A DNA stretch of 64,000 nt from Candidatus Uhrbacteria bacterium. Lineage in GTDB: Bacteria; Patescibacteriota; Patescibacteriia; UBA9934; GWF2-40-263. This document shows, piece after piece, positions 16,585 through 36,434 of the stretch. The notes below the pieces were generated by a model. It saw nothing but the letters and a program-made list of their open reading frames with translations, did not search any database and was not told where the DNA came from. Within the stretch, counting starts at the first letter, position 1, and every line of letters starts with the position of its first letter. Location of the stretch: assembly GCA_016209325.1 (NCBI GenBank), contig JACQWJ010000034.1, positions 220-64,219 on the forward strand, given 5' to 3'. A program made the position numbers and the translations under genes.

Positions 16585-16592
16585 AGAGACTG

Positions 16593-19580: not shown

Positions 19581-19583
19581 CGT

Positions 19584-19868
19584 ATGTATCGGATCGTCTT
19601 TCGAAAATGATTTGAGCGGACGTTTACGGATATCGACCAGGAAACCCAAAGAACCGTCATCGAAGCGTTGGAACGGCTGGCAGCGGATCCATTCGCCTCG
19701 CCGCATGTAAGAAAGATCGCCGGCGTAACGTACCCCGCCTACCGGCTCAGGGTCGGAAGGTGGCACGTCCTGTACCTCCTCATCACCGAAGACAAGACCA
19801 TCGAAGCCATCGAGCTCTTTCTCAAGACTTCTCAGAAGGAATACAGGAAGTTCGTTTCGGGAAGATAG
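19584..19868 (+). pseudogene. RelE/ParE-family toxin gene interrupted by in-frame TGA at 19608-19610
   Basis: MYRIVFRK-TGA-FERTFTDIDQETQRTVIEALERLAADPF...YRLRVGRWHVLYLLITEDKTIEAIEL, full RelE/ParE fold signature across the TGA; same frame on both sides. Confidence 0.55.
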
Positions 19869-19882
19869 GTAAAATCCCAATT

Positions 19883-20731: not shown

Positions 20732-20806
20732 ATCGTATTCACGATAAGGCACATTGCGTTCGAAAAAGAACAAACTATTTGAGCGCCTGACCAAGCGTCC
20801 ACTGGG

Positions 20807-21889
20807 CTACGTGGAAGAAGACTCCTGAGGAGGCGGGGGCACGGAACCCCCGCGCAACATGCCCGCCTTGTAGAGCTCAATCACGACGAGGAACGCCGCG
20901 AGGATGACGGGACCGACGATGATGCCGATCGAGCCGAAGACCTCGAGGCCGCCGAAGATGAAGATGAGGACCAGAAAGGCGTGCATGTGGGTCGCGCCCT
21001 TGATGAGGTAGGGGGCGAGCACGTTGTCGGACAGGCCGACGAAAACGGCCGCCCAGATGAGAAGCCCAATGGCGGCGCCGGTGCTGCCGGTGAAAAAGAG
21101 GTAGAGAACCGCAGGGATCATGACGAGGCCAACGCCGAACAAGGGAACTTGGGCCGCGACCACCGTGATCGCTCCCCAGATGAGAGCGCCGGGGACCCCG
21201 AAGATGGACATACCGATCGCGGCCAAGACACCCTGGACGAAGGCCAGGATGACCGCGCCGAACACCACCGAGCGCACGGTCAGGACGATGCGGTGGATGA
21301 TGTCGCGGTCCATGGCGTCCCCGAACGGACTGAGGGCGAGAATCTCGTCGTACATCTTCTGGCGGTCCACCAGGATGTAGTAGAGGGCGATGAAGAAGAT
21401 GAACGTGTTCAGGACCAGACGGGTAGTGCTCGAGAAGAGATCCCCAACATTGCTGAACATCCACTGGGCCAGGTTGCGGGCCAGGGCGTGGAGGTCCCAG
21501 GCGCGGACCTGTTCCTGGACGAACGCAGGCAGGCTTTGGAACAGGGGATGAGAGCGGGGATCGAACGTGGCCAGCCAGCCCGCCTCGCCAAGCGAGCTTT
21601 GGAGGATCTCGGAGGCCTGCTTCACCATAAGGAGCAGGATGAAGAAGACGGGCAGGGCGACGAGCAGGAAGACCCCGCACACGAGCAGGAACGCCGCGAG
21701 CTTCCGATGTCTGATCAAGCGCTCCATGCGGACGTGGAGCGGAGTCAGCATGATGGCCGCGATACCGGCCGCCAGGAGGACCAGGACAAACGGCTGGACT
21801 GTCTGCCAGGCGAGAAACAGGACCGCCGCGGCCAGCGCGAGAAAGAACCATTTTTCCAATCCCATCGTGGCGGAAAGGGGTTGCGACAT
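20807..21889 (-). CDS. AI-2E family transporter (PerM/YdiK-like, UPF0118)
   Basis: 8-TM protein with FIFFIALYYILVDRQKM and C-terminal GGLEVFGSIGIIVGPVILA, typical AI-2E family; start Met uncertain (ORF-track start at 22018 upstream). Confidence 0.7.
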   Translation of the reverse strand: MSQPLSATMGLEKWFFLALAAAVLFLAWQTVQPFVLVLLAAGIAAIMLTPLHVRMERLIRHRKLAAFLLVCGVFLLVALPVFFILLLMVKQASEILQSSLGEAGWLATFDPRSHPLFQSLPAFVQEQVRAWDLHALARNLAQWMFSNVGDLFSSTTRLVLNTFIFFIALYYILVDRQKMYDEILALSPFGDAMDRDIIHRIVLTVRSVVFGAVILAFVQGVLAAIGMSIFGVPGALIWGAITVVAAQVPLFGVGLVMIPAVLYLFFTGSTGAAIGLLIWAAVFVGLSDNVLAPYLIKGATHMHAFLVLIFIFGGLEVFGSIGIIVGPVILAAFLVVIELYKAGMLRGGSVPPPPQESSST

Positions 21890-21971
21890 AACGTATGAAG
21901 GCAAAAAGCGCAAAATATGACGGCAATCCCCTTTAGCATACCATGCCGCGTCCGTTACGACGGCTGAACAT

Positions 21972-22006
21972 GGGGAAAACGCAAACGCCCGGCACGGAGG
22001 CCGGGC
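21972..22006 (-). terminator. rho-independent terminator after major pilin gene
   Basis: Minus strand: CGCCCGGC-CTCCGT-GCCGGGCG then TTTGCGTTTTCC. Confidence 0.5.
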
Positions 22007-22033
22007 GTCGAACGCCATGGTGTTGAAGACGCT

Positions 22034-22537
22034 CTAACGAGCGACTTCGATCTCATCCGTGTTTTCCGACTCGCATGCGCGGATCGTCAGGATGCCGGTC
22101 GCGTCCCGCTGGAGCGTGTAGCCGGAGAGGGTGGCGCCCCAGGTTCCCGTGCCGTTCGGGCTGACGGGAACTTCGGCGAGGTAACCGTCCGTCACCAACT
22201 CCGCCAGGTCGACGCAATTCGTGGCGGAGCTGACAGCGGTCTCACAGGTGGCATTGCAACCGGTGGTGGCGGTGCCGATCATGTACACCTGCCCGGCCGT
22301 CGTGGCAGCGATGTCAGTGGCATACGCACCACTGTTGTCGACCTGGTCAATCTTGACGGCCGAAAGAATTTCCTGGACGTCGCTTTGGCGGACGGTATCG
22401 CGGGCGTCCTCAAAGCGGGTCGCGGGGTCCAGGGCGACGAACACGACCACCGCCAGGATGGCGATGATGCCGATCACAACAAGGAGCTCGATCAGGGTGA
22501 AACCGGCACGGGCGGCGCGACGGAAAGATGACAACAT
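22034..22537 (-). CDS. pilA: type IV pilin (prepilin-type N-terminal cleavage/methylation domain), probable major pilin
   Basis: ARAGFTLIELLVVIGIIAILAVVVF class-III signal peptide with G-1/F+1/E+5; C-terminal Cys pair; strong terminator downstream. Confidence 0.75.
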   Translation of the reverse strand: MLSSFRRAARAGFTLIELLVVIGIIAILAVVVFVALDPATRFEDARDTVRQSDVQEILSAVKIDQVDNSGAYATDIAATTAGQVYMIGTATTGCNATCETAVSSATNCVDLAELVTDGYLAEVPVSPNGTGTWGATLSGYTLQRDATGILTIRACESENTDEIEVAR

Positions 22538-22563
22538 AGAACGGAAAACTTCGTATGAAGGAT

Positions 22564-23559
22564 TTAGATGAACGTGTGATCAGCGGAGAACCGCCGGGGA
22601 CATGCGGCCCGCAAGGCGGCACCGAGCGCGGCACCGTAGGCATGAACCTCGCGTGGAGACAGTCCGGGAACGCGGACGACCTTCCCGATGGGGAACATGG
22701 GGAGTTCGGGGCGCACTTTGGCACACGCTTCCAGCACGGTCTTGTGTGCGGCTTCGACGCCGGCCAGGACCACACAGGAAACGCGCCATCCGCGCGGCTC
22801 GAAATATACCACCGAATCCTGGATCGTTTCAAGGATCATGTCCACCGAGCGCTTGGAGGGGATGCCGGAAAGGAGCGCGTCGGTCCCCCGTTTGGTGGAC
22901 GGGGGGTGGACGCGAAACGTACGCGAAAACAGGCAAGACCCGCCATCGGCATAAAATGCAATCGTGGCCCACGTATGACCAACGTCGACGATGCCCAACA
23001 GTTCCCTGGGCGCGGGACGCACATGGGGGGCAAAACGTCGGCACAGCCGCCAGACGGCTTTCGTATTTGCCTCGGCCGCCGCCATCGCGAATGACGGAAG
23101 GCCGACAGCAGCCAGCAGTCCTTCGACCACCGCTTCTTCGGCAGCATACGCCGTCACGCGCGGACCAACGGACTTGTCCGCCATCGATTCGAAAGACACG
23201 CGGGCGTGTGTGAACGACAAGGGGATGTCCTGCTGGGCCCGTCGACGAGCTTCTTCCTGCCAGGCACCCCGGGCAACGCCGGCCGACAAGGAAACCTGCG
23301 ATGAAAACACACGCGATTCCGGCACCAGAAGAACAGCCGGGAACGCACGACGGCTGAACGGACCACGGGCAAGTGCGCTCTCTAAAAACGTCCGGAGGTG
23401 CTTGGGATCACGCACCTGTTCATCCTCCACGCATCCCTCGGGAAGGGTCAATTCGCGCACGGCACGAACGCGCCCCCACCGGGAAACCCGCGCCAAGCGG
23501 ACATGGTGATCCGACACGTCGATACCGACACCGGAAAGATGAAAGGGGACATGAAGCAT
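22564..23559 (-). CDS. pilM: type IV pilus assembly protein PilM-like (actin-like ATPase fold)
   Basis: GIDVSDHHVRLARV N-terminal actin-fold phosphate-1 motif and central IVDVGHTWATIAF; position in pilus operon. Confidence 0.6.
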   Translation of the reverse strand: MLHVPFHLSGVGIDVSDHHVRLARVSRWGRVRAVRELTLPEGCVEDEQVRDPKHLRTFLESALARGPFSRRAFPAVLLVPESRVFSSQVSLSAGVARGAWQEEARRRAQQDIPLSFTHARVSFESMADKSVGPRVTAYAAEEAVVEGLLAAVGLPSFAMAAAEANTKAVWRLCRRFAPHVRPAPRELLGIVDVGHTWATIAFYADGGSCLFSRTFRVHPPSTKRGTDALLSGIPSKRSVDMILETIQDSVVYFEPRGWRVSCVVLAGVEAAHKTVLEACAKVRPELPMFPIGKVVRVPGLSPREVHAYGAALGAALRAACPRRFSADHTFI

Positions 23560-23560
23560 A

Positions 23561-23947
23561 CTAAGGAGTTTCCTCCCAACGCGTAATAACGATCGTCGAT
23601 GCGTCAACGGTCGCATCCACTTCCAGTCGGCGCACCCATGAACCTTCCGCGGCTTCTACACGAATGGTACAGGATCCACAGGGAACGCCGGCAACGGAGA
23701 TCGTGCAGGAGGCGGGGCCGACTTCCATTGTTTCGCCGGCATATGCGGCGTCACGGGTCAGCTGCGTCATGGCTTCTTCGGCACAACTCTCGGCTGCCAA
23801 CATGAGATGGCCGCTCCCGCGTGCCGCGAGTCCGGTCTCAAGGGCCTGCCATGCCCCAAGCGCCATGCCCCCGGAAAGAAGGAGGAGCAGCGCCGTAAAA
23901 AGCACGACGCCAACGAGCAGCGCCGCGCCACGACGGTCAGTTCGCAT
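23561..23947 (-). CDS. pseudopilin / minor pilin-like protein
   Basis: MRTDRRGAALLVGVVLFTALLLLL hydrophobic N-terminus; small; in pilus operon; start uncertain. Confidence 0.45.
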   Translation of the reverse strand: MRTDRRGAALLVGVVLFTALLLLLSGGMALGAWQALETGLAARGSGHLMLAAESCAEEAMTQLTRDAAYAGETMEVGPASCTISVAGVPCGSCTIRVEAAEGSWVRRLEVDATVDASTIVITRWEETP

Positions 23948-24464
23948 CCCCTTCCAAGGGAATGCGCATGGTGGTTTGAAATGACTCGGCATAGCCATCC
24001 ACGCTTCCTGTGTTCGAGACCGTCTCCAGGGTGAATTCCACGCGTATGATACCGCTCTCTTCGGAACTTGTCAGGTTGGTAAAAACAAAGCGCGTCACGA
24101 TCATGCCGGGCGGGGTCAGACGCACGGCATCTCCATGTGCCTGCATAACGAAGAGATTTCCGTTATCCTCATCCAGAAAAAATATCGTCGGATCTTCCAT
24201 ATTCTCGGACATCGTCAAAGACAACACCCCTGGGTCGACGTCGAATTGCGAACCTCCGAAATCGATTCCTGCCGCGTGACGTACAGCATCCGTCAGCCGA
24301 ACCTCCACAAGACGGGCATGGTGGGACACAGCGGCAACGGCCTTGATACGCGCATGGAGTATCATGGCCTGGAACAGAAGCGAGGACATGACCGTGATTA
24401 AAAACGCCGCAATCGCCAGGGAGACGAGCGTTTCAACGAGGGTAAACCCACGTGGATGCGTCAT
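23937..24464 (-). CDS. prepilin-type N-terminal cleavage/methylation domain protein (minor pilin)
   Basis: RGFTLVETLVSLAIAAFLI class-III signal peptide. Confidence 0.6.
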   Translation of the reverse strand: MTHPRGFTLVETLVSLAIAAFLITVMSSLLFQAMILHARIKAVAAVSHHARLVEVRLTDAVRHAAGIDFGGSQFDVDPGVLSLTMSENMEDPTIFFLDEDNGNLFVMQAHGDAVRLTPPGMIVTRFVFTNLTSSEESGIIRVEFTLETVSNTGSVDGYAESFQTTMRIPLEGDAN

Positions 24465-24473
24465 ACCAAAACA

Positions 24474-27323
24474 TCAATGTGAAAAACGCAAGGTCACGTC
24501 CTCCAAAACCGGCGTGGACGTTCCATCCCCCCGCAAGAAGCCTTTCCATTGGATCCAACGGCTCCCCGTCGCGTTTGGATCCGACTGCATGGCTTCACCT
24601 GAAACAGCATACGCGGTATCTGGAGTTCCGTCCGGACCTGTCCAGACCGCGTCCGCCAAAGAGGACTCCGTGGCAGCCGTTCGGATACGGAGCTCGACGG
24701 AACCCGTCCCCGACACGGTCCAAGCGGCGCTCAGCCAGTCCGTCGCATCATATCCCGCATCAAAGGCAGTGGAGGTGATGGTACCGTCCTGCGTGTAGCC
24801 GGTCGCAGCCGGTCCAGGCCCGACGATCTGCGCGTCGAGCGTGTCGTGCTCGGTTCCCAAAAACGCGTACGTGCCGTTGAAAAAGACGGCGTTCGCATCC
24901 GCGTCAGCGTCAAACGAAGAACGCAGCAGGGGCGAACTCGGAACAGACAGATCCCAGCGCTGAACCTCGGCATTGTCCGCGTCCAAGCCAACGAACACGA
25001 ACGTCGTCGATTGGAACGCGACGGCATTCACAGCGGAGGCCGCTTGGGTCTGGCTACTGACGACGGGAGAGGAGGGATTCTGGACGCTGACCAACAGCAG
25101 TTCCCCGTCCGCGCTGTCCGCACGACCGACAAGAACCAGACTTCCACTCTTCGCGAGCGCGCGACCGTCTGCCGTTCCATTTGCGTTGGCTGCGGATGTC
25201 AGGACCGGGACCGCTGGATTCGACACATTGAAAACAGCGAGCTCGCGCGCGTCATCGCTGGTTGCCGCATACAGCCAGGAGCTGTCCACAACCAAATCGT
25301 TGATGTTCCCATTGAAGCCAAGTGAGCCGCGCAAGGTGGGTGCGGCGGGATTCGTGACATTCAGGACGAACAGTTCGTTTGGACTGCCCGTCTGGCGACC
25401 GAGATACGCGGTCGTACCCGACAAGGCGACCGAAAACCCGTCCTGGCTCCCTTGGGCATCATAGCTTCCGGCCCGGACGGGAGCGGTTTTAGAACGGACA
25501 TCGATGATGTCCAACTCTCGGGTGTTCTGACTCGTGGCCAAATAGGCGTACCCGTTGCTGACAACGATATCCGAAACCGTTCCCCCAATCTCAAAGGATC
25601 CGCGCAGGACAGGAACAGCCGCGTTGGAAACGTCGTAGATGAAGAACTCCCGATCGCTGCTCGTAGAAAGCGTTCCGATGTACAGATACGCTCCGTCCAC
25701 GAACACGGAACGAACGTCGTGCGTGCCGCTCTTGTTGGCGGACCCGACGCGCACGGGAGCATCCCATCCCCCCTGCCCCGCCTCAAACACATTCAAGTCG
25801 GCAGCGTTGGCCTGGCCGCCGACGTATGCCCGCCCTCCGGAGAACGCAATACTGCGCGCATCATCAGTTCCCGAAATATCCCCCGATGACGCGAGAACCA
25901 AGGGGTCGAGATTCAATACCATCAGTTCGCCCGCGTCGGAAGAGGTCGCGACAAACGCAAAGGTGGTCTCGGGGTCAAGCGCGATATCCCGGACCGAGGC
26001 ATTGAGCTCAAGGCTGCCGAGAAGCGGAAGGCCCGCGTCAGGATCCGAGGCGTCGAGTATGGCAAACTCCTGTGAACTTCCCGAGGTGCGACCCACATAC
26101 AGACGGTCATCTCGCCATTCCAAGCTGAGGGTATCATCGTTCCCCGACAGGTTGACGGCCCGTGTCCTCACGAAGCTGGAACGGCTGATGACGGAAATCT
26201 CCTCATTGTTGGCCGTCGTGGCCACAAAGGCATGGGTAGGGGAAAACGCGATGTCGGTCGGGGTTATCCCCAACTCCGTGGTCCCAAGAAGCGGGAGACT
26301 CGCAAGAGGATCGCTCACGTCATAAAACGTAACTTCGGGCTGACCGGAAGCAGCCCGAACGATGCCGAGAGTCGATTCAGAAACCGCGAGTGCCAACGCA
26401 TCCGCGGTTCCGGACAGATCCAACGTGCCGACCGTAACCATTGAAGTCAGACTGACGATGGTCACCTCGGCCCCATCCTGGACGGAAGAAAGGTAGGCAT
26501 AGCCGTTTGCCACGGCCATGTCGGTAAACGTGATGCCCCCGAATTCCGCTCCGCGCACGACGGTCGGCGCAGCGTCGGAATCGCCGCTCACGTCGAACGC
26601 CTGTAACTCGTTTCCCGAAGTGGAAGTGGAAAGGACGTACAGGAGATCCTGCGACGCGTCGACCGCCGCAGCAATGCGATCCCCATCACCGTCCAGATTG
26701 AGCGTGTACGCAAGGAGGGCCTTCTTCCAGGCGGGATCGGCAGACTCCAGCAGGACTTCCCCACCCTCCGCGTTTTGGATCTGTGTCCCATGTCTCCGAC
26801 CTGCCTCAAAATCCGTGCGTGTCGTCTGCGTCCAGGCGGAGATCAACCAATTGAAGACGTACACGACCGATTCCCAGCGGCGGGGAATGTTTTGGAAGGG
26901 CTCGCTTGTTTCAAGAGTGACCGTCACTTGCTTCGCCCCTGGATCCAACGTGCCCGTCTCCGCGATAGCGCCTTCCAATCCGTCGGTGCGATAGACGTCT
27001 TCGACGAGAAGCGTGCGCGTGTACGATCCGTTGCGCAACGATTCCGGATCGCCCTGGAAGGCATAATAGCCGACCGCGGTCGTGAGGCCGTGAGTCCCGT
27101 TCACGAGTTCCCCCCAGTCGCGGTCGCGAATCGAACGCGCCGCCTGCACGCCTTCCTCGAGATAGCCGGTCGCGACCGTCTCGAGTCGTCCTCGCTCCAC
27201 GGCATCCAACGACAAAAGAAGCGCCGTAAACGTCCCCAAGGCCACCAAGGACACGATTGCCATGGCCAAGACGGCCTCCAAAATCGATTGTCCGGCGGGA
27301 AACGTGTGCTGACGCATACTCAC
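24474..27323 (-). CDS. large pilin-like protein with LVIVD beta-propeller repeats (putative pilus tip/adhesin)
   Basis: N-terminal prepilin-like segment AGQSILEAVLAMAIVSLVALG; >10 LVIVD-type repeats (AYLSSVQDGAEVTIVSL, AFVATTANNEEISVISR, AFVATSSDAGELMVLNL, AYLATSQNTRELDIIDV ...). Confidence 0.6.
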   Translation of the reverse strand: MSMRQHTFPAGQSILEAVLAMAIVSLVALGTFTALLLSLDAVERGRLETVATGYLEEGVQAARSIRDRDWGELVNGTHGLTTAVGYYAFQGDPESLRNGSYTRTLLVEDVYRTDGLEGAIAETGTLDPGAKQVTVTLETSEPFQNIPRRWESVVYVFNWLISAWTQTTRTDFEAGRRHGTQIQNAEGGEVLLESADPAWKKALLAYTLNLDGDGDRIAAAVDASQDLLYVLSTSTSGNELQAFDVSGDSDAAPTVVRGAEFGGITFTDMAVANGYAYLSSVQDGAEVTIVSLTSMVTVGTLDLSGTADALALAVSESTLGIVRAASGQPEVTFYDVSDPLASLPLLGTTELGITPTDIAFSPTHAFVATTANNEEISVISRSSFVRTRAVNLSGNDDTLSLEWRDDRLYVGRTSGSSQEFAILDASDPDAGLPLLGSLELNASVRDIALDPETTFAFVATSSDAGELMVLNLDPLVLASSGDISGTDDARSIAFSGGRAYVGGQANAADLNVFEAGQGGWDAPVRVGSANKSGTHDVRSVFVDGAYLYIGTLSTSSDREFFIYDVSNAAVPVLRGSFEIGGTVSDIVVSNGYAYLATSQNTRELDIIDVRSKTAPVRAGSYDAQGSQDGFSVALSGTTAYLGRQTGSPNELFVLNVTNPAAPTLRGSLGFNGNINDLVVDSSWLYAATSDDARELAVFNVSNPAVPVLTSAANANGTADGRALAKSGSLVLVGRADSADGELLLVSVQNPSSPVVSSQTQAASAVNAVAFQSTTFVFVGLDADNAEVQRWDLSVPSSPLLRSSFDADADANAVFFNGTYAFLGTEHDTLDAQIVGPGPAATGYTQDGTITSTAFDAGYDATDWLSAAWTVSGTGSVELRIRTAATESSLADAVWTGPDGTPDTAYAVSGEAMQSDPNATGSRWIQWKGFLRGDGTSTPVLEDVTLRFSH

Positions 27324-27757
27324 GAGCTGACCAAACCGTTGGCGTTGACCTCAAGGGAAACGGAACGTCCTGCATCGGGAACTGTAAGCGTGATCGTACC
27401 CGTCTGTGCGGTCTCCCCCGTACGGATCTGAAACACGACATCCGAAAGGCCCGAGGCACGGACAGAGGAAGGAAAGACGCGCACTTCATCCACATCCAGA
27501 TCGCGCTCCACGTAACTTGTCCCTTGAAACAAGGTTGCTCGATCAGATTCCAGATGGACCCCCCACACGCCCCCCTGGTCGCCGTTCACGGTCCGTTCCT
27601 GCGCGCGACGGAGCACATCCTCGACGGCCTGACGTTCGGCCGCCAACTGGAGGACGGGCAACGCGCTGAACGCAAACACGACGGCACCCCCCAGAAGGAG
27701 GCCGGTGAGTGCGATAACGATCAAGAGTTCGACCAACGTAAATCCGCGATGAACCAT
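27320..27757 (-). CDS. pseudopilin (prepilin-type N-terminal domain)
   Basis: HRGFTLVELLIVIALTGLLLGG class-III signal; start at MVHRGF. Confidence 0.6.
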   Translation of the reverse strand: MVHRGFTLVELLIVIALTGLLLGGAVVFAFSALPVLQLAAERQAVEDVLRRAQERTVNGDQGGVWGVHLESDRATLFQGTSYVERDLDVDEVRVFPSSVRASGLSDVVFQIRTGETAQTGTITLTVPDAGRSVSLEVNANGLVSS

Positions 27758-27834
27758 AGAGACAGGGTGCACACGCGTGCGCACCCGGGAACGGTTGTGC
27801 GGACGCACGGGAAGCGGGAGCGCGCGGACGTCAT

Positions 27835-28953
27835 CTAGAGACGAACACCGGAAGTCACGGAATAAATAGGAGTGAAAATGGAGATGGCGAGAAACCCAAT
27901 CGACAGACCAATGATGAGGAGGAGGATGGGTTCGACGAGTGTTGCAAAGGCTTTGGCCTCGACCGCGACTTTGTCTTCGTAAAACCGGGCGAGATACGTC
28001 AGGGAATCGCCCGTGCCTGCCGACCGCTCGCCGACGGCCACGGCACGCTGGATCATCGTGGGGTAGAGGCGCGGAAACAAGGCTAATCCACCAGCCAGTC
28101 CCTGGCCGCTTTCGACCCGGGACCTCAGTTGAGAAATGGAACGACGGTAGATCACATTTGACAGGGCGTCTTCAGACAGGGTCAGGGCTTCTGGAAGCGG
28201 TAGACCGGTCTGTAGAAGCGTGCCAAGGGTGCGGCAGAAGCGGGCGCGGTTGACGTCGTGAAAAAACCGTCCGAGGAGGGGAGCGCGCAAAAGCGCCCGC
28301 TCGACGAGCGGGCGCACGCGAGGGTGACAAAGAAGCAGCGCGAACGCCAGAAGCACGAGGACGGAGCCCGGAAGGAGAACAAATCCGTAGCGGTCCAGGA
28401 GGTCAGCAAGCGCGATAAGGAGCCGGGTGGTCCAGGGAAGCTCGACGCGGAGTGACTGGAACACGCGGGCAAGCTTCGGGAGGACAAAGATTGCGAGACC
28501 CCCACCGATGAGACCAGTCGTGACGAGGACGAACGCCGGATAGGCCATGGCGCCGCGGACGCTCCTGCGGAGACGTAGCTCCTGCTCGAGCTGCTCGGCG
28601 ACGCGTGTCAGGTTCGCGGCCAGGGTACCGGACTGCTCGCCAACACGCACCGCATTCATGAACACAGGACCGAACAAGCGGGCGCTGTCCCGGATCGCTT
28701 CGGCAAACGGACGGCCGGACCGCACGTCAGCATGCCAGGCGCGGAGCCGATGCTTGAACGGACCGGCGGTCTCGGCTACGAGAGCCTCGAGCGCTTCGGG
28801 AATGGTCAAACCCGCAGCCAGCATGACCGACAGGTTCTTGGTAAGTGTCACGGTATCCGTCGAACCCGCACTGCCCCATGCGAAACGGAGAAGTGTACGC
28901 AGGCGACCCTCGTTGAGGGAAGCAGGAACAAGACCGGCGTGCGAGCGGTTCAT
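27835..28953 (-). CDS. pilC: type IV pilus / T2SS platform protein PilC (GspF family)
   Basis: Two GspF repeats, 3 TM helices, AMAYPAFVLVTTGLIGGGLAIFVLPKLARVF motif. Confidence 0.8.
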   Translation of the reverse strand: MNRSHAGLVPASLNEGRLRTLLRFAWGSAGSTDTVTLTKNLSVMLAAGLTIPEALEALVAETAGPFKHRLRAWHADVRSGRPFAEAIRDSARLFGPVFMNAVRVGEQSGTLAANLTRVAEQLEQELRLRRSVRGAMAYPAFVLVTTGLIGGGLAIFVLPKLARVFQSLRVELPWTTRLLIALADLLDRYGFVLLPGSVLVLLAFALLLCHPRVRPLVERALLRAPLLGRFFHDVNRARFCRTLGTLLQTGLPLPEALTLSEDALSNVIYRRSISQLRSRVESGQGLAGGLALFPRLYPTMIQRAVAVGERSAGTGDSLTYLARFYEDKVAVEAKAFATLVEPILLLIIGLSIGFLAISIFTPIYSVTSGVRL

Positions 28954-30713
28954 ATGCGGACGGCGCGCAGGACCTCTTCCACGCTGGTGAGGCCGGTCAT
29001 GGCTTTACGGAGCCCGTCGGACAGCATGGGAATCATCCCCTCCTTCAGGGCCGCAGCGCGAATGTCGTCGGCATTCCGACGCTCCATGACAGCCGTACGA
29101 ACAGCGTCCGTGACCCGCAGGAACTCAAACACGCCCACGCGCCCGTGATAACCACTCTGGTGGCACACCCCACATCCTTTGCCTTTGAACAGACGCACGT
29201 GGACCAAGTCGCGCTTGTCTGCAAGGCCCAAAAGTTCTTTGCGAATTTCTGGCACACGTTCAAGTAAATGGACCTCTGTTTGGGTGAGAGGAGACGTCTG
29301 AATACAACTCATACAGATACGCCGCACCAGCCGCTGGGCCAGGATCGCGTTGACCGTGGAGGCAATGAGAAAATCATCGACCTGCATGTCCGCCAGACGG
29401 GGAAAGGCCGTGGCTGCGTCGTTCGTGTGCAAGGTGGACAGGACGAGATGGCCGGTCATGGCCGCGTTGACAGCGATGTGCGCGGTCTCCGTATCGCGGA
29501 TCTCCCCTACCATGATCACGTTTGGATCCTGACGGACAATGGAGCGCAGACCTTTGGCGAAGGTGAGGTCCGCGCGCTCGTCCACCTGGATCTGGTTGAC
29601 ACCCACCATGTCATACTCAACGGGATCTTCAATGGTCGTAATATTGGCCTCGCGGCGATTCAGAATCTTGAGTGCGGCATAGAGGGTGGTCGACTTGCCC
29701 GAGCCCGTGGGACCCGTGACAAGGAACATCCCCCAGGACCGGCGGAGCATGTCGGACAGCTTCTGCGCGTCGTCGGGATGGAGACCGAGGTCGGAGAGCG
29801 AAAAGTCGCGGCTCTTGTCGGTCAGGAGGCGCATGACGGCTTTCTCGCCATGGGTCGTCGGAATGATCGATAGACGGATTTCAATCTCCTGACCCCAGGA
29901 GGAGGCAAAGGTGATCTTTCCGTCCTGGGCTGTCCGATGCTCGTCCGTGGCCAACCGCCCCAAAACTTTGAGACGGGAAATGACCGAATCCTGAAGGGCG
30001 GGGGGAATCTCCGCCATGTCGCGCAAGAGGCCATCGACGCGATACCGAATCGCGGTGTACGCATCCTCGGGATCGAGGTGGACGTCCGACGCCCCGGCCT
30101 GAAAGGCGGACTCGATCATGAGGGCGACGAGCTCGACGGTCGCGGCCCCGGCTTCGAGCGCCCCCGTCTGGAACCGCTCAAACAAGCCAGCAAACGACAC
30201 GGCGGGGTCCTCCCGAAACAGGGACATGTGCCCTTGGATGTCCCGCGAGGTGGCGTACGCGAACGACACGGACTTGCGCAAATACTTCTCGAGGAGAGAA
30301 CGGATGGGAGCATCCCGGGGATCGGTCGTGGCCACGAGCACGGATCCGTCCTTGGAAGAAACAGGGACGAGTCCATGACTGCGAATAAAGGTTTCCGGAA
30401 GCAACCCACGCATGTCCTCGGAAACGTGGGTCTGCTCCAAATTGACAAAGGGAACCTGGTACCACCACGCCATAAGCTGACCGAGTTCGACATCCTTCAA
30501 AACACCCCGTTGAACAAGAGCCTCTTCCAGCCCCAGACGGGCGGCCTCGGGTGCGCAGGCCGTCTCTTCAAATTGCGTCTGGCTGAGGCCTCCTCCTCCC
30601 ACCAAGGCTTCCTCCAATTGTGCGCGGGTAAGTCCCATAGAGCGGATGTCGTAGGGGCGTTGAACAGTCAGATTATAGCATCGGAACGGACGCGAACGAA
30701 GAGACGAGATCAA
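28950..30713 (-). CDS. pilB: type IV pilus assembly ATPase PilB (GspE family)
   Basis: N-terminal GspII domain, Walker A LVTGPTGSGKSTTLYA, Asp box, Walker B, tetracysteine C-x2-C...C-x2-C. Confidence 0.85.
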   Translation of the reverse strand: MISSLRSRPFRCYNLTVQRPYDIRSMGLTRAQLEEALVGGGGLSQTQFEETACAPEAARLGLEEALVQRGVLKDVELGQLMAWWYQVPFVNLEQTHVSEDMRGLLPETFIRSHGLVPVSSKDGSVLVATTDPRDAPIRSLLEKYLRKSVSFAYATSRDIQGHMSLFREDPAVSFAGLFERFQTGALEAGAATVELVALMIESAFQAGASDVHLDPEDAYTAIRYRVDGLLRDMAEIPPALQDSVISRLKVLGRLATDEHRTAQDGKITFASSWGQEIEIRLSIIPTTHGEKAVMRLLTDKSRDFSLSDLGLHPDDAQKLSDMLRRSWGMFLVTGPTGSGKSTTLYAALKILNRREANITTIEDPVEYDMVGVNQIQVDERADLTFAKGLRSIVRQDPNVIMVGEIRDTETAHIAVNAAMTGHLVLSTLHTNDAATAFPRLADMQVDDFLIASTVNAILAQRLVRRICMSCIQTSPLTQTEVHLLERVPEIRKELLGLADKRDLVHVRLFKGKGCGVCHQSGYHGRVGVFEFLRVTDAVRTAVMERRNADDIRAAALKEGMIPMLSDGLRKAMTGLTSVEEVLRAVRI

Positions 30714-32110
30714 GTCCCCTTCGGTGACCGTTCAGCCTTCAGGGGCAGGAGGACGTAAAAAGCGGTTCCCTTTCCCTCTTCGGAACGAAACCAAATTTCG
30801 CCCCCGGCCTGGTCGACGATGGCTTTGGTCGTATACAAACCGAGTCCTGTGCCGCTCGTCTCCTTGCCAATAACGTTGTCCGCGCGAAACAGTTTGGTAA
30901 ACACCTGATTCTGCTGATGGAACGGGATCCCGTAGCCCGTGTCGGAAACCGTGAGAAAGACGCTCGCACGGCGCACGGCGCGGTCGGCGGCGCGCTCTCC
31001 TGCCCGCTTGCCCTCGAGTACGACCGTTACCGTGCCAGATTTGGGGGTGTACTTCACGGCGTTCGACACGAGGTTGTCGAACACGATTTCGAGGAGCTTC
31101 TGATCGGTCTGTAAAACAGGCAGAGAGGGTGTAAAACGCGTCTTGAGGTGTAGACCACGCAGACGGAGTACAGGACGGCATTCCTGGAGGATGGCGCGCA
31201 TGCTTCGCACCACGTCCACCTGCTCGCGCTTGAACGCAAGCGTCCCAAGGTCGATTCGCGACACGCGCAGGAACGCATCCACGAGCTCGACCATGCGCTG
31301 GTTGCTCTGATACAAGAGATCGAGGTACTCGCGCTGCTTGTCGTTAACCGCCCCCGGAATTCCTGCGAGCAACATGTCCGCGTACCAACGAACGGCTGTG
31401 AGTGGAGTCCGGAGCTGGTGGGAGGCAAGACCGACGAACTCAGTCTTGGCGCGGTCGACCTCCTTTTCGCGTGTCATGTCGCGGAACACGAGCACCGCGC
31501 CCGCGGCCTGCCCTTCGGAGACCACCGAGGCACAGGTCGCGACCATGGGAAAGCGTGTGCTGTCCTTGCGACGCAGATAAAACGTGGGGAGGAGAGAAAA
31601 GACCGTCTTGGCGCGCGCGGTTTTTCCCGGTCGGAGCGGATGCCGTCCACGCGCTAACGAACGCCCTTTCTCGTCGTCGATACGCACAACGGACAATCCC
31701 GACTTCCCATGTGCTTCCTCTGCCTTCCAACCGAGGAGTATCTCGGCTTCCTGATTCATGAGCATGATGCGCCCTTTTTCGTCCGTAGCGACGACGCCAT
31801 CGCCAAGACTCGTAAGCAACGCCTGACACCTACCCTTCTCCTTCTCAAGTTCGCGGGTGCGACGGGCGAATTGGAGGAACGCCGAACGGTAGCGCGCGGT
31901 TCCGATAAGTAGACCCGTCACAGCCAAAGCACAACCTCCAAGGGCAAGCGGGCCGAGACCGGACAAGGAGCGCAGCATGGCAAGCGCGACGTCGAACCCT
32001 TGCCAGAAGCCGAGCGCCAAAAATCCCAGCAGGAACAGGTCTGCCAGACCGAACGCGAACAGGCACAGGAAGAGAAACCGACGTTCCGCCTCCCAGGAAC
32101 GTGAGGACAT
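30710..32110 (-). CDS. sensor histidine kinase (2 TM, PAS, HisKA, HATPase_c)
   Basis: H-box ASHQLRTPLTAV, N-box DNLVSNAVKYT, G-boxes DTGYGI / GTGLGLY. Confidence 0.8.
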   Translation of the reverse strand: MSSRSWEAERRFLFLCLFAFGLADLFLLGFLALGFWQGFDVALAMLRSLSGLGPLALGGCALAVTGLLIGTARYRSAFLQFARRTRELEKEKGRCQALLTSLGDGVVATDEKGRIMLMNQEAEILLGWKAEEAHGKSGLSVVRIDDEKGRSLARGRHPLRPGKTARAKTVFSLLPTFYLRRKDSTRFPMVATCASVVSEGQAAGAVLVFRDMTREKEVDRAKTEFVGLASHQLRTPLTAVRWYADMLLAGIPGAVNDKQREYLDLLYQSNQRMVELVDAFLRVSRIDLGTLAFKREQVDVVRSMRAILQECRPVLRLRGLHLKTRFTPSLPVLQTDQKLLEIVFDNLVSNAVKYTPKSGTVTVVLEGKRAGERAADRAVRRASVFLTVSDTGYGIPFHQQNQVFTKLFRADNVIGKETSGTGLGLYTTKAIVDQAGGEIWFRSEEGKGTAFYVLLPLKAERSPKGT

Positions 32111-32236: not shown

Positions 32237-32624
32237 TCAGGTGTCGAGCGTATCCTGAATCTTCTTTACCACGTCAGGCAGGGAGTAGTTGGCCTTGATG
32301 AAGTACTCCTTGGCGCCGAGCGCGAGACCGCGCGCGATGTCGTCGTCCTGGCCAAGATTCGAGAGAATCAGTGTGGGAATCTTTTTCAGAGCCGGATCCT
32401 TATGTTTCTCTTCCAACGTTTCAAATCCGTCCTTGATGGGCATGATGAGGTCGAGGAGCACGAGGTCCGGATGCCAGGCGCGCATCTGCTTCAGACCGTC
32501 TTCCCCGTTCGTCACCGTCATGACCTCATACCCAGCATGCTCCAACCCCGCGGTATAGGCGCGCAAGATAAAGTCGTCGTCTTCCACCACCAAAATGCGT
32601 TTCACGCTGGTTTTCATACATGTT
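32237..32624 (-). CDS. stand-alone response regulator receiver (CheY-like)
   Basis: KRILVVEDDD...DLVLLDLIMP...ILSNL receiver motifs with conserved Asp; start at MKTSVK. Confidence 0.75.
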
Positions 32625-32685
32625 TGAGCCCCAAACCTAGCACGACATCCAATTTTTGGCAAGAGCAAGCGAAATAAATGAACGT

Positions 32686-33807
32686 CTACCATCGCACGAC
32701 TGCTTTCAGCAAAAAGAAGTACGCGACCATCAACGGATTGACGACTCGTTTGAGGAGCGGGTTTTCAATTTCCTGGGCTTCGATTCTTCCTACCATGTAG
32801 CGGAGAATCTCACGATCCGGAACCCGGCGGATGCGCGCGGTTTGGCGGCGCAGACGGCGAATCCAGGACCAGGTGGAGGGAAGGAAAAAAAAGGCCCACA
32901 CCCGACATTTCTCCTTCAACCATCCTGACTTCCAGGCAAATGCCGCCGTGCCCCCCTCCATCACGAGGAGTGGAAGGAGCATGAGCAGAAGAGTGGGTAA
33001 CCGCAAGCGGGACGCGTGCGTCACCAGGCGGTTGCGCTCCATCAGGTAAAATTTCGCGATGCTGCGGGAAAACTCGTAGCGATGATAGATCACCGACGCC
33101 TCGGCGTAGGCGTGCCTGTATCCCGCCAGACGCGCCCGCCAAGCGAGGTCTACGTCGTCGTGGTACATGAAGTAGGCGGGATCGAACAGGCCACCGACCG
33201 CTTCCAAGACGCCGGTCCGGACGAGAAGCCCGGCGCCGCTGTTGAAAAAATGGGGACGTGGATGCCGGCGTGCGTCTTCCGGCGTCCGACGATAGCCGTC
33301 GGAAAAACCGAATCCCAAAACATGGAGGCAATTGCCGCAGGAATTCAGGAGGAACGGCTCCTGCTTCAGCATCACGCGGGACTGAACTGTGGCGATCCGG
33401 GGGTCAGAGGCGGCGACCCGTACGGCCTCCTCCAGAAAACCGGGATCGCAGACGGTGTCCTGGTTCAACAGATACAGGAAGTCCGGCTCCCAGGAACGGA
33501 TGGCTTCATGCGCCGCGACGTGTCCGCCCGCGAACCCCGTATTTTTTTCAGATCGTACAAACGTCATCTCCGGCAGCGTTCGGCGGGCTTTTGGCATCCA
33601 ACGCGTCCGAAACAGCTCCTCCGCGCGGCAGTCGTCCCCGTAGGGATTGTCGACCACCACGATATGCCAACGGTCATGCGGATAGGAGACTTGCTCCAGG
33701 GAACAAAAACAGTCCTCGATGTCCTTCTCCGCCCCCGGATGGAGATAGGCGAGATACTGAACGGCAACTTTGGGCAGGAGCGTGGTCATATCCGCTTGCC
33801 CGCCCAT
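32686..33807 (-). CDS. glycosyltransferase family 2
   Basis: GT-A DxD region (VVVDNP..., YLLNQDTV) and conserved C-terminal region. Confidence 0.65.
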   Translation of the reverse strand: MGGQADMTTLLPKVAVQYLAYLHPGAEKDIEDCFCSLEQVSYPHDRWHIVVVDNPYGDDCRAEELFRTRWMPKARRTLPEMTFVRSEKNTGFAGGHVAAHEAIRSWEPDFLYLLNQDTVCDPGFLEEAVRVAASDPRIATVQSRVMLKQEPFLLNSCGNCLHVLGFGFSDGYRRTPEDARRHPRPHFFNSGAGLLVRTGVLEAVGGLFDPAYFMYHDDVDLAWRARLAGYRHAYAEASVIYHRYEFSRSIAKFYLMERNRLVTHASRLRLPTLLLMLLPLLVMEGGTAAFAWKSGWLKEKCRVWAFFFLPSTWSWIRRLRRQTARIRRVPDREILRYMVGRIEAQEIENPLLKRVVNPLMVAYFFLLKAVVRW

Positions 33808-36428: not shown

Positions 36429-36434
36429 GGGGTC

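What the first reader, a model, noticed from the sequence alone, without database searches (positions are those of the whole stretch)
24474..27323. 949-aa pilin-like protein with a prepilin N-terminus and a long LVIVD beta-propeller, inside a secretin-less type IV pilus operon
Within the pilus operon sits a very large protein that begins with a class-III (prepilin-like) hydrophobic segment and then carries more than 10 LVIVD-type repeats. The operon itself has pilA, pilM, three pseudopilins, pilC and pilB, with no pilQ/pilN/pilO/pilT in the window. This looks like a pilus-displayed adhesin or tip module fused to a pilin anchor. It sits directly upstream of a histidine kinase/receiver pair that could regulate piliation.
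Basis: partly seen in the sequence, partly recalled or inferred. Interest (0 to 1): 0.55.

Follow-up and report, generated by a model that had tools for sequence, protein, structure and literature searches.

The report
Giant double-propeller type IV minor pilin
A 949-residue protein in a Candidatus Uhrbacteria type IV pilus operon is a minor pilin carrying two seven-bladed LVIVD beta-propellers, most likely an adhesin shown at the pilus tip; pilins with grafted modules, including LVIVD ones, are already catalogued, so this is an uncharacterised member of a known kind.

Summary
ORF 24474-27323 (minus strand) encodes a 949-aa protein in a Candidatus Uhrbacteria (CPR/Patescibacteria) contig.

- **N-terminus:** it is a class III (prepilin) signal, MSMRQHTFPAG|QSILE followed by about 22 hydrophobic residues. 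Gly-1 and Glu+5 are conserved across the family.
- **Fold:** AlphaFold2 predicts a 55-residue helix and a small beta-sheet (the pilin module), then 14 four-stranded blades, then a conserved 107-aa C-terminal beta domain.
- **Repeats:** a repeat HMM built only from homologues finds exactly 14 LVIVD-type units.
- **Two propellers:** the two halves are 30% identical in register. Foldseek hits tandem seven-bladed propellers. Relatives come in length classes that fit 1 to 5 propellers.
- **Operon slot:** the gene fills the second minor-pilin slot (GspI/PilV/ComGE position) of a conserved operon: HK/RR, pilB, pilC, GspH-like pilin, this gene, two more minor pilins, pilM, pilA. In other Patescibacteria the same slot holds a bare 138-175-aa pilin or the same pilin module with other C-terminal domains.

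The best reading is a tip-displayed adhesin on a monoderm type IV pilus. Function is inferred, not shown. The pilin + LVIVD architecture is already listed by Raynaud et al. 2021, and TM7x PilX2 is a tested analogue.

One correction: the kinase/receiver pair lies upstream of pilB, not downstream of this gene.

The parts
24474..27323 (-). Whole gene: 949-aa modular minor pilin (pilin module, split beta domain, two LVIVD propellers)
   Evidence: ORF list and translation. The exact protein is in NCBI as MBI4599165.1, Candidatus Uhrbacteria. AlphaFold2 mean pLDDT is 85.5.
27291..27323 (-). Class III leader peptide, residues 1-11 (MSMRQHTFPAG), ending in Gly-1
   Evidence: Gly11 is invariant in the 27-sequence N-terminal alignment. 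Mature residue 1 of solved pilins aligns to the position right after it.
27120..27290 (-). Mature N-terminus QSILE (Glu+5), hydrophobic alpha1-N, and the long alpha1 helix (residues 12-68)
   Evidence: Glu16 is nearly invariant. The helix spans 14-68 in the full model and 10-68 in the module model. This is the only hydrophobic segment in the protein. N_methyl scores 13.6 bits here, below the cut-off, but 9 of 16 orthologues match it at E up to 0.01.
26844..27119 (-). [quoted passage not shown]
   Evidence: Strands fall between residues 76 and 157. Stand-alone homologues of 138-175 aa end exactly here.
26724..26843 (-). Conserved linker strands (residues 161-200, W-x-Q-T...D-F-x-x-G...G-E-V-x-L). 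Proposed N-terminal part of a split beta domain.
   Evidence: F172, G175 and G188 are conserved. In the 305-aa relative P0179 this segment runs directly into the C-terminal domain with no propeller between them. The split-domain reading is inference.
25779..26723 (-). Propeller 1: LVIVD-type units 1-7 (residues 201-515)
   Evidence: 28 strands. Seven repeat-HMM hits of 8.7-30 bits. 30% identity to propeller 2 in register, E 3.6e-29.
24798..25778 (-). Propeller 2: LVIVD-type units 8-14 (residues 516-842). It starts at the conserved GGW motif and holds the best-conserved blades.
   Evidence: Pfam LVIVD best stretch is 580-622. Repeat-HMM hits score 19.6-53 bits. W520 is conserved and unit 9 is the most conserved. 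The GGW...SG.HD motif recurs at the start of the extra propeller in the 1271-aa relative P0002.
24477..24797 (-). Conserved C-terminal beta domain (residues 843-949). No known family.
   Evidence: It has the highest conservation score of the seven regions compared. S851, W868, G896, G899 and P938 are conserved. It has no Pfam or PDB sequence match.
27320..27808 (-). Minor pilin 1, GspH-like (162 aa as ORF), translationally coupled to the 949-aa gene
   Evidence: N_methyl scores 30.1 bits. GspH scores 20 bits, just under its cut-off. TIGR02532 scores 27.4 bits.
23937..24464 (-). Minor pilin 3 (175 aa, RGFTLVE), GspI/J/ComGE/GF-like by weak hits
   Evidence: N_methyl scores 28.2 bits. NCBIfam hits are sub-threshold. 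Orthologues follow the big gene in all loci.
23561..23947 (-). Minor pilin 4 (about 128 aa from the ATG at 23947): MRTDRRG|AALLVGVV, no Glu5. GspK/PilX/ComGG-like position.
   Evidence: Read from the sequence. No Pfam or NCBIfam match. Conserved in the same position in related loci. Its class is inferred from position and the lack of Glu5.
22564..23616 (-). pilM (likely start is the ATG at 23559)
   Evidence: PilM_2 scores 28.3 bits against a cut-off of 27. TIGR01175 has E 4e-12. Start read from the sequence.
22034..22537 (-). pilA, candidate major pilin (167 aa, AGFTLIELLVV)
   Evidence: N_methyl scores 31 bits. It is 56-70% identical to the gene in the same position in related loci, the best-conserved pilin of the operon.
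21984..22009 (-). Terminator-like hairpin just after pilA (10-bp stem, 8 G-C pairs, T-rich tail). Probable operon end.
   Evidence: Pattern scan. This is a consensus match only.
27835..28953 (-). pilC platform protein
   Evidence: T2SSF scores 176.6 bits with two domains.
28950..30713 (-). pilB assembly ATPase (the true start is probably about 25 codons inside the ORF)
   Evidence: T2SSE scores 405.9 bits and an MshEN domain is present. TIGR02538 scores 494.9 bits. tblastn matches start at residues 4-46, most at 21-26.
30710..32110 (-). Membrane PAS histidine kinase. Its stop codon overlaps the start of the pilB ORF.
   Evidence: PAS, HisKA and HATPase_c domains.
32237..32692 (-). Stand-alone receiver domain protein (CheY-like, no output domain)
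   Evidence: Response_reg scores 70 bits with no other domain apart from a sub-threshold PDE8A_N match inside the receiver region. A receiver next to pilB recurs in L003, L007, L010, L012 and L014.

Best explanation
The gene encodes a modular type IV minor pilin of a monoderm-type (secretin-less) pilus in a Candidatus Uhrbacteria cell.

**Shown by sequence and comparison**
- It has a class III signal: a short basic leader, Gly-1, Glu+5 and a hydrophobic alpha1.
- The signal is followed by a small pilin head (residues 1-160).
- This head is orthologous to free-standing 138-175-aa pilins that fill the second minor-pilin slot of the same operon in other Patescibacteria. That is the GspI/PilV/ComGE position in an H-I-J-K-like set.
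- Onto this head is grafted a module of about 790 residues: 14 LVIVD blades arranged as two seven-bladed propellers that arose by duplication, plus a conserved C-terminal beta domain.

**Inferred**
- A prepilin peptidase encoded elsewhere cleaves after Gly11.
- The four minor pilins assemble on PilC, driven by PilB, into the priming complex that ends up at the pilus tip. The Glu5-less fourth pilin sits on top.
- The double propeller is thereby displayed at the tip of a PilA filament, where it binds a ligand on a host cell or surface.
- The number of propellers (1 to 5 in relatives) and the swapping of the C-terminal module between lineages tune reach and specificity.
- The neighbouring kinase and single-domain receiver modulate pilus extension.
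For: **Class III signal**
- Gly11 and Glu16 are conserved, and the motif is present in 101 of 118 relatives.
- Among the matches to the N-terminal profile, the PDB chains aligning to its first ~45 positions are, with one exception, type IV pilins or GspG. Mature residue 1 lines up just after the invariant Gly.
- N_methyl is matched in 9 of 16 orthologues.

**Pilin-like fold**
- A helix of about 55 residues followed by a beta-sheet, with pLDDT of 74-96 over most of the module (lower at its ends and around residues 90-100).

**Slot and orthology**
- The order pilB-(pilT)-pilC-H-like-THIS-pilin-pilin-pilM-pilA is conserved in L001-L009, L010 and L016.
- The same slot holds a bare 138-aa homologue in L014 and a 258-aa homologue with a Cys-rich tail in L012.
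- NCBIfam's best sub-threshold hits for the module are ComGE (12 of 27), PilV, XpsI and GspI.

**Propellers**
- Pfam LVIVD scores 56 bits.
- There are 14 units, with scores far above shuffles, and 14 four-stranded blades.
- The two halves are 30% identical in register.
- Foldseek's best PDB hits are tandem seven-bladed propellers (Utp21 4nsx, DDB1, BT4663) at E 1e-16 to 6e-20.
- Relatives fall into length classes of about 600, 940, 1250, 1650 and 1990 aa.

**Precedent**
- Modular pilins act as tip adhesins (PMC8179133).
- TM7x PilX2, a pilin with a seven-bladed propeller, is needed for host binding (PMC11623550).
- CPR cells attach to hosts by pili-like appendages (PMC7906910).
Against: - No prepilin peptidase and no PilT are encoded in the 64-kb window, so processing and retraction cannot be confirmed for this genome.
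- This copy's N_methyl score (13.6 bits) is below Pfam's cut-off of 21.2.
- Foldseek finds no significant PDB match for the pilin module. The best pilin hit is TTHA1218 at E 0.37.
- The GspI/PilV/ComGE assignment rests on sub-threshold hits, probably driven by the helix, and on gene order.
- The function of LVIVD repeats is unknown (PMC10210494), and no ligand can be inferred.
- A mature protein of 938 residues (about 100 kDa) is roughly twice the mass of the 50.5-kDa processed S. sanguinis PilB, the solved modular pilin cited here. Its passage through the cell wall is unproven.
- The full-length pTM is only 0.64, so the mutual arrangement of domains is uncertain.
Confidence: 0.6

Rival explanations
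1. The protein uses its pilin-like helix only as a membrane anchor. It stays at the base of the machine, or on the cell surface, as a sensor, primer or cell-envelope adhesin. In this it would resemble PilY1-type priming factors, and it would never be lifted into a filament.
For: - The large size of the module.
- TM7x PilX2, the closest tested analogue, is not needed for filament extrusion. Its authors also raise a PilY1-like priming role.
- No PilT is present in this operon.
Against: - Glu+5 is nearly invariant. That residue matters for pilin-pilin packing in filaments and is not needed for a plain anchor.
- The module's orthologues are ordinary small minor pilins in a fixed slot of an H-I-J-K-like set.
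- Translational coupling to the neighbouring pilin genes.
Confidence: 0.15
2. It is displayed on the pilus, but its job is not adhesion to a host. The propellers would bind DNA for uptake (a competence-type pilus), or act as an enzyme on host envelope polymers.
For: - The only PDB sequence match of the family profile is the seven-bladed propeller YncE, E 4e-5. From my own knowledge, YncE binds single-stranded DNA.
- The pilin module's best NCBIfam hits are to competence pilin ComGE.
- CPR bacteria depend on imported nucleotides, and T4P are suspected in DNA uptake.
Against: - The YncE match is weak: 24.6 bits, with no stretch passing on its own.
- No comEC or comEA was seen among the scanned ORFs of the window.
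- No catalytic family matched the protein in Pfam or NCBIfam.
- pilM and in-operon pilT in relatives indicate a T4a-like pilus rather than a Com pilus.
Confidence: 0.12
3. The operon builds a short T2SS-like pseudopilus for secretion rather than an external pilus, and the big protein is its cap.
For: - Minor pilins give weak hits to GspH, GspI and GspJ models.
- PilB scores about equally on the GspE and PilB models.
Against: - There is no secretin or outer membrane to cross.
- A PilM and a well-conserved PilA-like major pilin are present.
- A genuine PilT/PilU ATPase lies in the operon of close relatives, at 376 bits against a cut-off of 319.
- A 100-kDa cap makes little sense for a piston.
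Confidence: 0.05
4. The N-terminus is an ordinary Sec signal peptide or a simple signal anchor, and the protein is an unrelated surface propeller protein that happens to lie among pilin genes.
For: - Pfam N_methyl and TIGR02532 do not reach threshold for this copy.
Against: - The hydrophobic stretch is interrupted by a conserved Glu at +5 after a conserved Gly.
- It continues into a 55-residue helix.
- It aligns in register with solved pilins.
- Orthologues pass N_methyl.
- Position in the operon is conserved across at least 12 loci.
Confidence: 0.03

Closest known systems
Modular type IV pilins as defined by Raynaud et al. 2021 (PMC8179133). Prototype: S. sanguinis PilB (pilin + vWA) and PilC (pilin + lectin).
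   Same: - An N-terminal pilin module with a class III signal carries a bulky non-pilus module.
- It is a minor pilin of a monoderm pilus.
- Tip display and adhesion are proposed.
- That paper's Dataset S1 already lists about 30 proteins with IPR012902 followed by 1-13 copies of IPR013211 (= LVIVD). The text mentions an 860-aa Candidatus Falkowbacteria example.
   Different: - The module is a different fold (LVIVD propellers, not vWA or lectin), and the protein is about twice the size.
- The propellers seem to be inserted inside a second conserved beta domain rather than simply appended.
- The LVIVD class was listed only as a 'motif of unknown function'. No structure, operon position or function has been described for it.
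PilX2 of Nanosynbacter lyticus TM7x (Saccharibacteria), PMC11623550
   Same: - A CPR minor pilin with a C-terminal seven-bladed beta-propeller.
- It has a non-canonical signal by predictor.
- It is the largest pilin of its locus.
- Its deletion lowers host binding but not filament production.
   Different: - PilX2's propeller is made of RCC1 repeats and there is only one. Here there are two LVIVD propellers, and no RCC1 family appears among the Pfam matches.
- The phylum is different.
- PilX2's pilin genes lie in a separate locus from the machinery.
- Homology of the pilin modules was not tested, because no PilX2 sequence was available.
PilY1 / PilC adhesins of Pseudomonas and Neisseria type IVa pili
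   Same: - A beta-propeller adhesin associated with the tip complex of four core minor pilins. This is a functional analogy.
   Different: - PilY1 is not a pilin. It has a Sec signal and docks on the minor pilins, and its propeller belongs to IPR008707.
- The PilY1/PilC propeller family is not among the Pfam matches at E up to 0.1.
- In effect the propeller here is fused to one of the minor pilins.
GspI / PilV / ComGE class of core minor pilins
   Same: - The second gene of a four-gene minor-pilin set, following a GspH-like gene.
- A small head with Glu5.
- Best, though sub-threshold, NCBIfam hits.
   Different: - No model reaches its cut-off.
- Fold comparison was inconclusive.
- Known members are about 120 aa with no extra module.
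CofB / TcpB minor pilins of type IVb pili
   Same: - A large minor pilin with extra beta domains after the pilin module, proposed at the tip as an adaptor or initiator (described).
   Different: - A different pilus class, different domains (beta-repeat plus beta-sandwich) and trimeric organisation.
- No sequence relation was seen.

Membership tests
Type IV pilin / class III signal peptide (IPR012902, PF07963, TIGR02532) | Short, positively charged leader ending in Gly at -1 | tested here: met
   The leader is MSMRQHTFPAG. Gly11 is invariant in 27 aligned family members. [GA]xx[LIV][LIV]E is found in 101 of 118 relatives.
Type IV pilin / class III signal peptide (IPR012902, PF07963, TIGR02532) | Glu at +5, followed by about 20 hydrophobic residues that form the start of a long alpha1 helix | tested here: met
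   QSILE16 is followed by AVLAMAIVSLVALGTFTALLLSL. Glu16 is invariant or nearly so. The helix is predicted at 14-68 and 10-68. The family profile aligns in register with alpha1-N of solved pilins and GspG.
Type IV pilin / class III signal peptide (IPR012902, PF07963, TIGR02532) | Score above the curated threshold of the N_methyl / GFxxxE models | tested here: inconclusive
   This copy scores 13.6 bits against a cut-off of 21.2, and has no TIGR02532 hit. However, 9 of 16 orthologues match PF07963, with a best E of 8e-7. The +1 residue is Gln rather than Phe.
Type IV pilin / class III signal peptide (IPR012902, PF07963, TIGR02532) | Alpha-beta 'lollipop' head resembling solved pilins | tested here: inconclusive
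Type IV pilin / class III signal peptide (IPR012902, PF07963, TIGR02532) | Cleavage and N-methylation by a PilD-type A24 peptidase, and incorporation into a filament | not testable with these tools
   No Peptidase_A24 appears among the scanned ORFs of the window.
Type IV pilin / class III signal peptide (IPR012902, PF07963, TIGR02532) | Encoded with type IV filament machinery and other pilins | tested here: met
   pilB, pilC, pilM, pilA and three other pilin-like genes sit in one tightly packed operon. Synteny is conserved in at least 12 loci.
LVIVD repeat proteins (PF08309 / IPR013211) | Significant match to the LVIVD model | tested here: met
   56.1 bits against a cut-off of 20.2. 15 of 16 orthologues match, with a best E of 1e-42.
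LVIVD repeat proteins (PF08309 / IPR013211) | Tandem units of about 42-46 residues folding as beta-propeller blades | tested here: met
   14 units of 40-50 aa. 56 strands make 14 four-stranded blades, with block-mean pLDDT of 73-96 over the repeat region. Foldseek matches tandem propellers at E down to 6e-20. Seven blades per propeller is inferred from the internal duplication and the length classes, not from inspecting coordinates.
Modular type IV pilins (Raynaud et al. 2021) | An N-terminal pilin module plus a module not specific to pilus biology, in one polypeptide | tested here: met
   The pilin module exists on its own, and with other tails, in relatives. LVIVD occurs in thousands of non-pilin proteins. 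The architecture IPR012902-IPR013211 is listed in Dataset S1.
PilY1 / PilC tip adhesins (IPR008707) | A PilY1-type C-terminal propeller domain in a non-pilin protein with a Sec signal | tested here: not met
   The PilY1/PilC propeller family is not among the Pfam matches at E up to 0.1, and the protein has a class III signal. The resemblance is functional analogy only.
GspI / PilV / ComGE core minor pilins | Match above cut-off to the family models, and second position in the H-I-J-K gene set | tested here: inconclusive
   The position criterion is met. Only sub-threshold hits were found: ComGE in 12 of 27 members, PilV in 4, XpsI in 4, GspI in 3. This copy itself has none.

The most novel reading that the evidence does not exclude
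The second minor-pilin slot of Patescibacteria pilus operons is a swappable host-recognition cassette. The same small pilin head carries nothing, a Cys-rich knot, a beta domain, or one to five LVIVD propellers nested inside a conserved C-terminal domain. The type and number of modules would set which host cell envelope an uncultivated Uhrbacteria-type episymbiont can grasp. The propeller module could then serve as a bait to identify hosts.
Probability: 0.25. Interest if true: 0.6.

Novelty: new member of a known kind. Interest (0 to 1): 0.4.

Why it matters
Most CPR/Patescibacteria, including Uhrbacteria, have no known host, and how they recognise one is open. Type IV pili are their best-supported attachment organelle, and in the one tractable system (TM7x) a propeller-bearing minor pilin contributes to host binding.

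This family gives a concrete, conserved candidate for the same role in Parcubacteria-type lineages.
- Its domain boundaries are defined, so the module (residues 201-949) could be expressed and used to fish for ligands or host cells.
- It has a simple architectural series of 1-5 propellers.
- Modules are swapped at one operon slot.

It also gives the LVIVD repeat, whose function is unknown, a defined biological setting. It does not change the current concept of modular pilins.

Tried and rejected
**Alternatives rejected**
- **Sec signal peptide:** rejected on the conserved Gly-1/Glu+5, the register with solved pilins and the 55-residue helix.
- **PilY1 or RCC1 membership:** neither family is among the Pfam matches.
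- **Target of the neighbouring diversity-generating retroelement:** rejected. The only long repeat in 9000-28000 is the TR/VR pair at 16.6/17.1 kb, outside this gene.

**Searches that led nowhere**
- **C-terminal domain:** no match in Pfam, in PDB sequences or in the word-indexed protein search.
- **Linker strands (161-200) as a copy of the C-terminal domain:** hhalign found no relation, probability 0.2%.
- **Fold class of the pilin module:** Foldseek against PDB gave nothing below E 0.2.

**Weak support only**
- The link between the 305-aa relative P0179 and the C-terminal domain is 19 bits by HMM and 48% probability, E 2e-4, by hhalign. BLASTP aligns only the pilin module.

- The full 16-sequence alignment was too divergent for the genome scan, so a 7-sequence subset was used.
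- PilD and PilT elsewhere in this genome could not be checked, because only the window is held.

Full report
**What is there.** The window comes from a Candidatus Uhrbacteria (CPR/Patescibacteria) metagenome-assembled genome. The exact protein is NCBI MBI4599165.1, 'hypothetical protein HY734_03160', on a 66-kb contig. ORF 24474-27323 lies on the minus strand and gives 949 aa from a GTG that overlaps the stop codon of the preceding pilin gene (GTGA). NCBI starts two codons later, at an ATG. G+C content is about 59-60% over 24-28 kb, similar to most of the window, so nothing suggests recent import.

**N-terminus.**
- The protein begins MSMRQHTFPAG|QSILEAVLAMAIVSLVALGTFTALLLSL.
- In 16 full-length homologues (29-43% identity) and in a 27-sequence alignment of the N-terminal 200 residues, Gly11 is invariant and Glu16 is invariant or nearly so.
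- The pattern [GA]-x-x-[LIVMFT]-[LIVMFTA]-E plus a hydrophobic run is present in 101 of 118 relatives of 560-1400 aa. By inspection of the N-terminal sequences, most of the others look like truncated gene calls.
- A profile of this region searched against all PDB sequences gave 17 weak matches. Those aligning to the N-terminal helix were type IV pilins and GspG (geopilin, PilA, MshA, TcpA, PilE1, TTHA1219). The first residue of the mature chains fell on the position after the invariant Gly.
- Pfam N_methyl is matched by 9 of 16 orthologues. This copy scores only 13.6 bits against a cut-off of 21.2.
- This is the only hydrophobic segment of the protein, and there is no cysteine.
- AlphaFold2 predicts one continuous helix (residues 14-68, or 10-68 in the module-only model) followed by a small antiparallel sheet up to residue 157.
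- An ordinary Sec signal is therefore excluded as far as sequence can show.
- Foldseek found no significant PDB neighbour for the head, so its fold class remains unassigned.

**Repeats and propellers.**
- Pfam LVIVD scores 56 bits, E 2e-15, with two stretches passing on their own.
- I built a repeat HMM from units 8-12 of 57 homologues, leaving this protein out. It finds 14 back-to-back units between residues 218 and 828, scoring 8.7-53 bits. The best score in 100 shuffled copies is 3.6 bits.
- The full-length model has mean pLDDT 85.5 and pTM 0.64. It contains 56 strands between residues 202 and 839, i.e. 14 four-stranded blades in register with those units.
- Residues 201-515 and 516-842 are 30% identical over 315 residues in register, E 4e-29.
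- Foldseek against the PDB returns tandem seven-bladed propeller proteins first: Utp21 4nsx, other SSU-processome WD proteins, DDB1 and BT4663 4a2l. These align over about 700-900 columns at 10-15% identity, E 1e-16 to 6e-20.
- Relatives that carry the pilin motif fall into length classes near 600, 940, 1250, 1650 and 1990 residues. The steps of about 320-350 residues correspond to seven blades.
- In the 1271-aa relative, the extra block starts with the same GGW...SG.HD motif that starts the second propeller here.
- I conclude there are two seven-bladed propellers that arose by duplication. The 7+7 split is an inference, since I could not inspect coordinates.

**C-terminal domain.**
- The last 107 residues score highest in conservation of the seven regions compared. 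They match nothing in Pfam or among PDB sequences.
- A 305-aa relative, P0179, has the pilin module, the linker strands, and then directly a domain that matches this C-terminal profile end to end. The support is 19 bits by HMM and 48% probability, E 2e-4, by hhalign.
- This suggests that residues 161-200 and 843-949 form one domain into which the propellers were inserted. The evidence is modest.

**Operon and comparative context.** On the minus strand the order is:
1. Receiver (32237-32692)
2. PAS histidine kinase (30710-32110)
3. pilB
4. pilC
5. GspH-like pilin
6. This gene
7. A 175-aa pilin
8. A protein of about 128 aa starting MRTDRRG|AALLV, with no Glu5
9. pilM
10. pilA
11. A terminator-like hairpin

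Genes overlap or are separated by fewer than 30 nt. The same order is found in nine loci from Uhrbacteria and other MAGs, including a Peribacteria locus at 25% identity. It also holds in loci of a 30%-identical orthologue (L010) and of the three-propeller variant (L016).

Searching with the N-terminal profile showed that the pilin head also occurs in two other forms:
- As free-standing pilins of 138-175 aa that end exactly where the head ends here.
- Fused to other tails, namely Cys-rich repeats or an unrelated beta domain.

In L014 the bare 138-aa form sits in the same slot of an otherwise identical operon: HK, RR, pilB, pilC, pilin, THIS SLOT, pilin, pilin, pilM, pilA. In L012 the Cys-rich form does.

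The slot is the second of four minor pilins, after a GspH-like one and before a Glu5-less one. The head's best NCBIfam hits, all sub-threshold, are ComGE, PilV, XpsI and GspI. I therefore place it at the GspI/PilV/ComGE position, with reservations.

Four of seven close loci carry a gene between pilB and pilC. In L002 this gene is a PilT/PilU ATPase, at 376 bits against a cut-off of 319. It is absent here, where pilB and pilC overlap.

No PilD, PilT, PilN, PilO or secretin was found among the scanned ORFs of the window. Lack of a secretin is expected for a monoderm-type CPR envelope.

**Family size.** The word-indexed search found only 16 full-length relatives. The exhaustive profile search found 12,393 proteins at E up to 1e-30, most of them generic LVIVD proteins. 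Taken together with the first-round hits, 111 proteins carry the pilin motif. Of these, 57 are two-propeller forms, 24-43% identical to this one.

**How it most likely works.**
- Shown: a pilin-type signal and head, a grafted double propeller, a fixed operon slot, and module swapping between lineages.
- Inferred:
  - a prepilin peptidase encoded elsewhere cleaves after Gly11;
  - the four minor pilins prime assembly on PilC/PilB and end up at the tip of a PilA filament;
  - the propellers bind a ligand on a host cell or surface;
  - the kinase and single-domain receiver tune extension.
- Supporting precedent:
  - S. sanguinis PilB is a tip-exposed modular pilin adhesin (PMC8179133).
  - TM7x PilX2, a pilin with a seven-bladed RCC1 propeller, is needed for efficient host binding but not for filament production (PMC11623550).
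  - Groundwater ultrasmall cells are seen attached to hosts through pili-like appendages (PMC7906910).

I give this reading 0.6. The rivals are:
- a membrane-retained primer or sensor (0.15);
- a tip module with another activity, such as DNA binding, hinted at only by a weak YncE match (0.12);
- a secretion pseudopilus (0.05);
- a Sec-type surface protein (0.03).

**Comparison with what is known.**
- The kind is known. Raynaud et al. 2021 defined modular pilins. Their Dataset S1 lists about 30 InterPro proteins with IPR012902 followed by 1-13 copies of IPR013211, and the text cites an 860-aa Candidatus Falkowbacteria case as a 'motif of unknown function'.
- IPR013211 is the LVIVD repeat (PMC10210494).
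- This protein is not a PilY1 family member: that family is not among its Pfam matches, and it has a pilin signal.
- I found no paper describing this family's structure, operon slot or function.
- The verdict is a new, uncharacterised member of a known kind.
- The added points are the 7+7 architecture, the 1-5 propeller series, the probable nested insertion, and module swapping at one slot.

**Limits.**
- Only the window was available for this genome.
- All functional statements are inference.

Noticed in passing
window 15182-17333, with an IS element at 17523-18669: A diversity-generating retroelement lies about 5 kb downstream of pilA.
- Reverse transcriptase: 15182-16180 (-).
- bAvd-like gene: 16216-16584 (+), 39 bits against a cut-off of 40.
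- Template repeat: 16589-16710.
- Variable repeat: 17079-17200.

All 14 mismatches in the roughly 118-nt core fall at adenines of the template copy. The variable repeat ends a short ORF (17076-17333, -) that looks 5'-truncated by an IS3-family insertion. The element does not target the pilin gene.
   Followed up: partly
window 28950-28953, compared with L001, L002, L004, L006 and L016: Close relatives carry a PilT/PilU retraction ATPase between pilB and pilC (376 bits in L002). In this genome the pilB stop overlaps the pilC start and no second T2SSE ATPase is in the window. The pilus here may be non-retractile, or it may use a pilT encoded elsewhere.
   Followed up: partly
window 59029-62910 (-): A 1293-aa protein has 16 copies of the MopE-type putative metal-binding motif (PF11617, 470 bits) and a lipoprotein-like N-terminus.
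   Followed up: no
window 52919-54967 (-): A 682-aa protein combines an S8 subtilase with FG-GAP repeats. It is another secreted or surface propeller-type protein near the glycosyltransferase cluster.
   Followed up: no
window 3336-5549 (-) and 2417-3424 (-): The SecD homologue (737 aa) carries PpiC-type rotamase domains ahead of the P1 head domain. SecF follows it. A SecD-PPIase fusion is not what I expect of a SecD (my impression, not checked).
   Followed up: no
window 14000-20800: A low-GC island (48-54% against about 60%) holds a zeta toxin (14222-14929), the retroelement, an IS3 transposase and a Bro-N protein (19883-20794). It lies directly after the AI-2E permease that follows pilA. 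An AbiEii toxin is at 57306-58067.
   Followed up: no
window 32199-32227 (-) and 32686-39408: A 12-bp terminator-like hairpin lies between the receiver gene and the kinase gene. Upstream are four GT2 glycosyltransferases and RmlA-, RmlD- and RmlB-like genes (a putative rhamnose pathway, judged from generic sugar-nucleotide Pfam families). The receiver/kinase order here (RR then HK) is the reverse of that in L002, L006, L007 and L014.
   Followed up: no
window 6774-6849 (-) and 43701-43777 (+): ARAGORN reports two tRNA-Ser(TGA) genes. Rfam at gathering threshold reports only the second. The first lies inside a 160-aa ORF with no family match, which is probably not a gene.
   Followed up: no
L013 9083-10876, L010 1-3659 and 13788-15365, L012 5992-7461: Three variations on the operon appear in other Patescibacteria.
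- In L013 a 597-aa protein follows the slot-2 and slot-3 pilins, so a large protein sits at or just after the end of the minor-pilin set.
- In L010 the operon adjoins cheB, cheA, cheC/X and cheD, and PilM is 525 aa with SH3 domains.
- In L012 PilC carries an SH3 domain.
   Followed up: no
L003, L004, L005, L006, L009 (record titles): Several loci with 39-41% identical orthologues in the same secretin-less operon are titled 'uncultured Gammaproteobacteria bacterium' (TPA assemblies). The gene content looks like Patescibacteria, so these labels are probably placeholders or errors.
   Followed up: no
window 41431-42945 (-), 44059-45708 (-), 46335-48470 (+): Three large ORFs (504, 549 and 711 aa) have no Pfam match. 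They lie among cell-envelope glycosylation genes and next to a CDP-alcohol phosphatidyltransferase (45698-46297).
   Followed up: no
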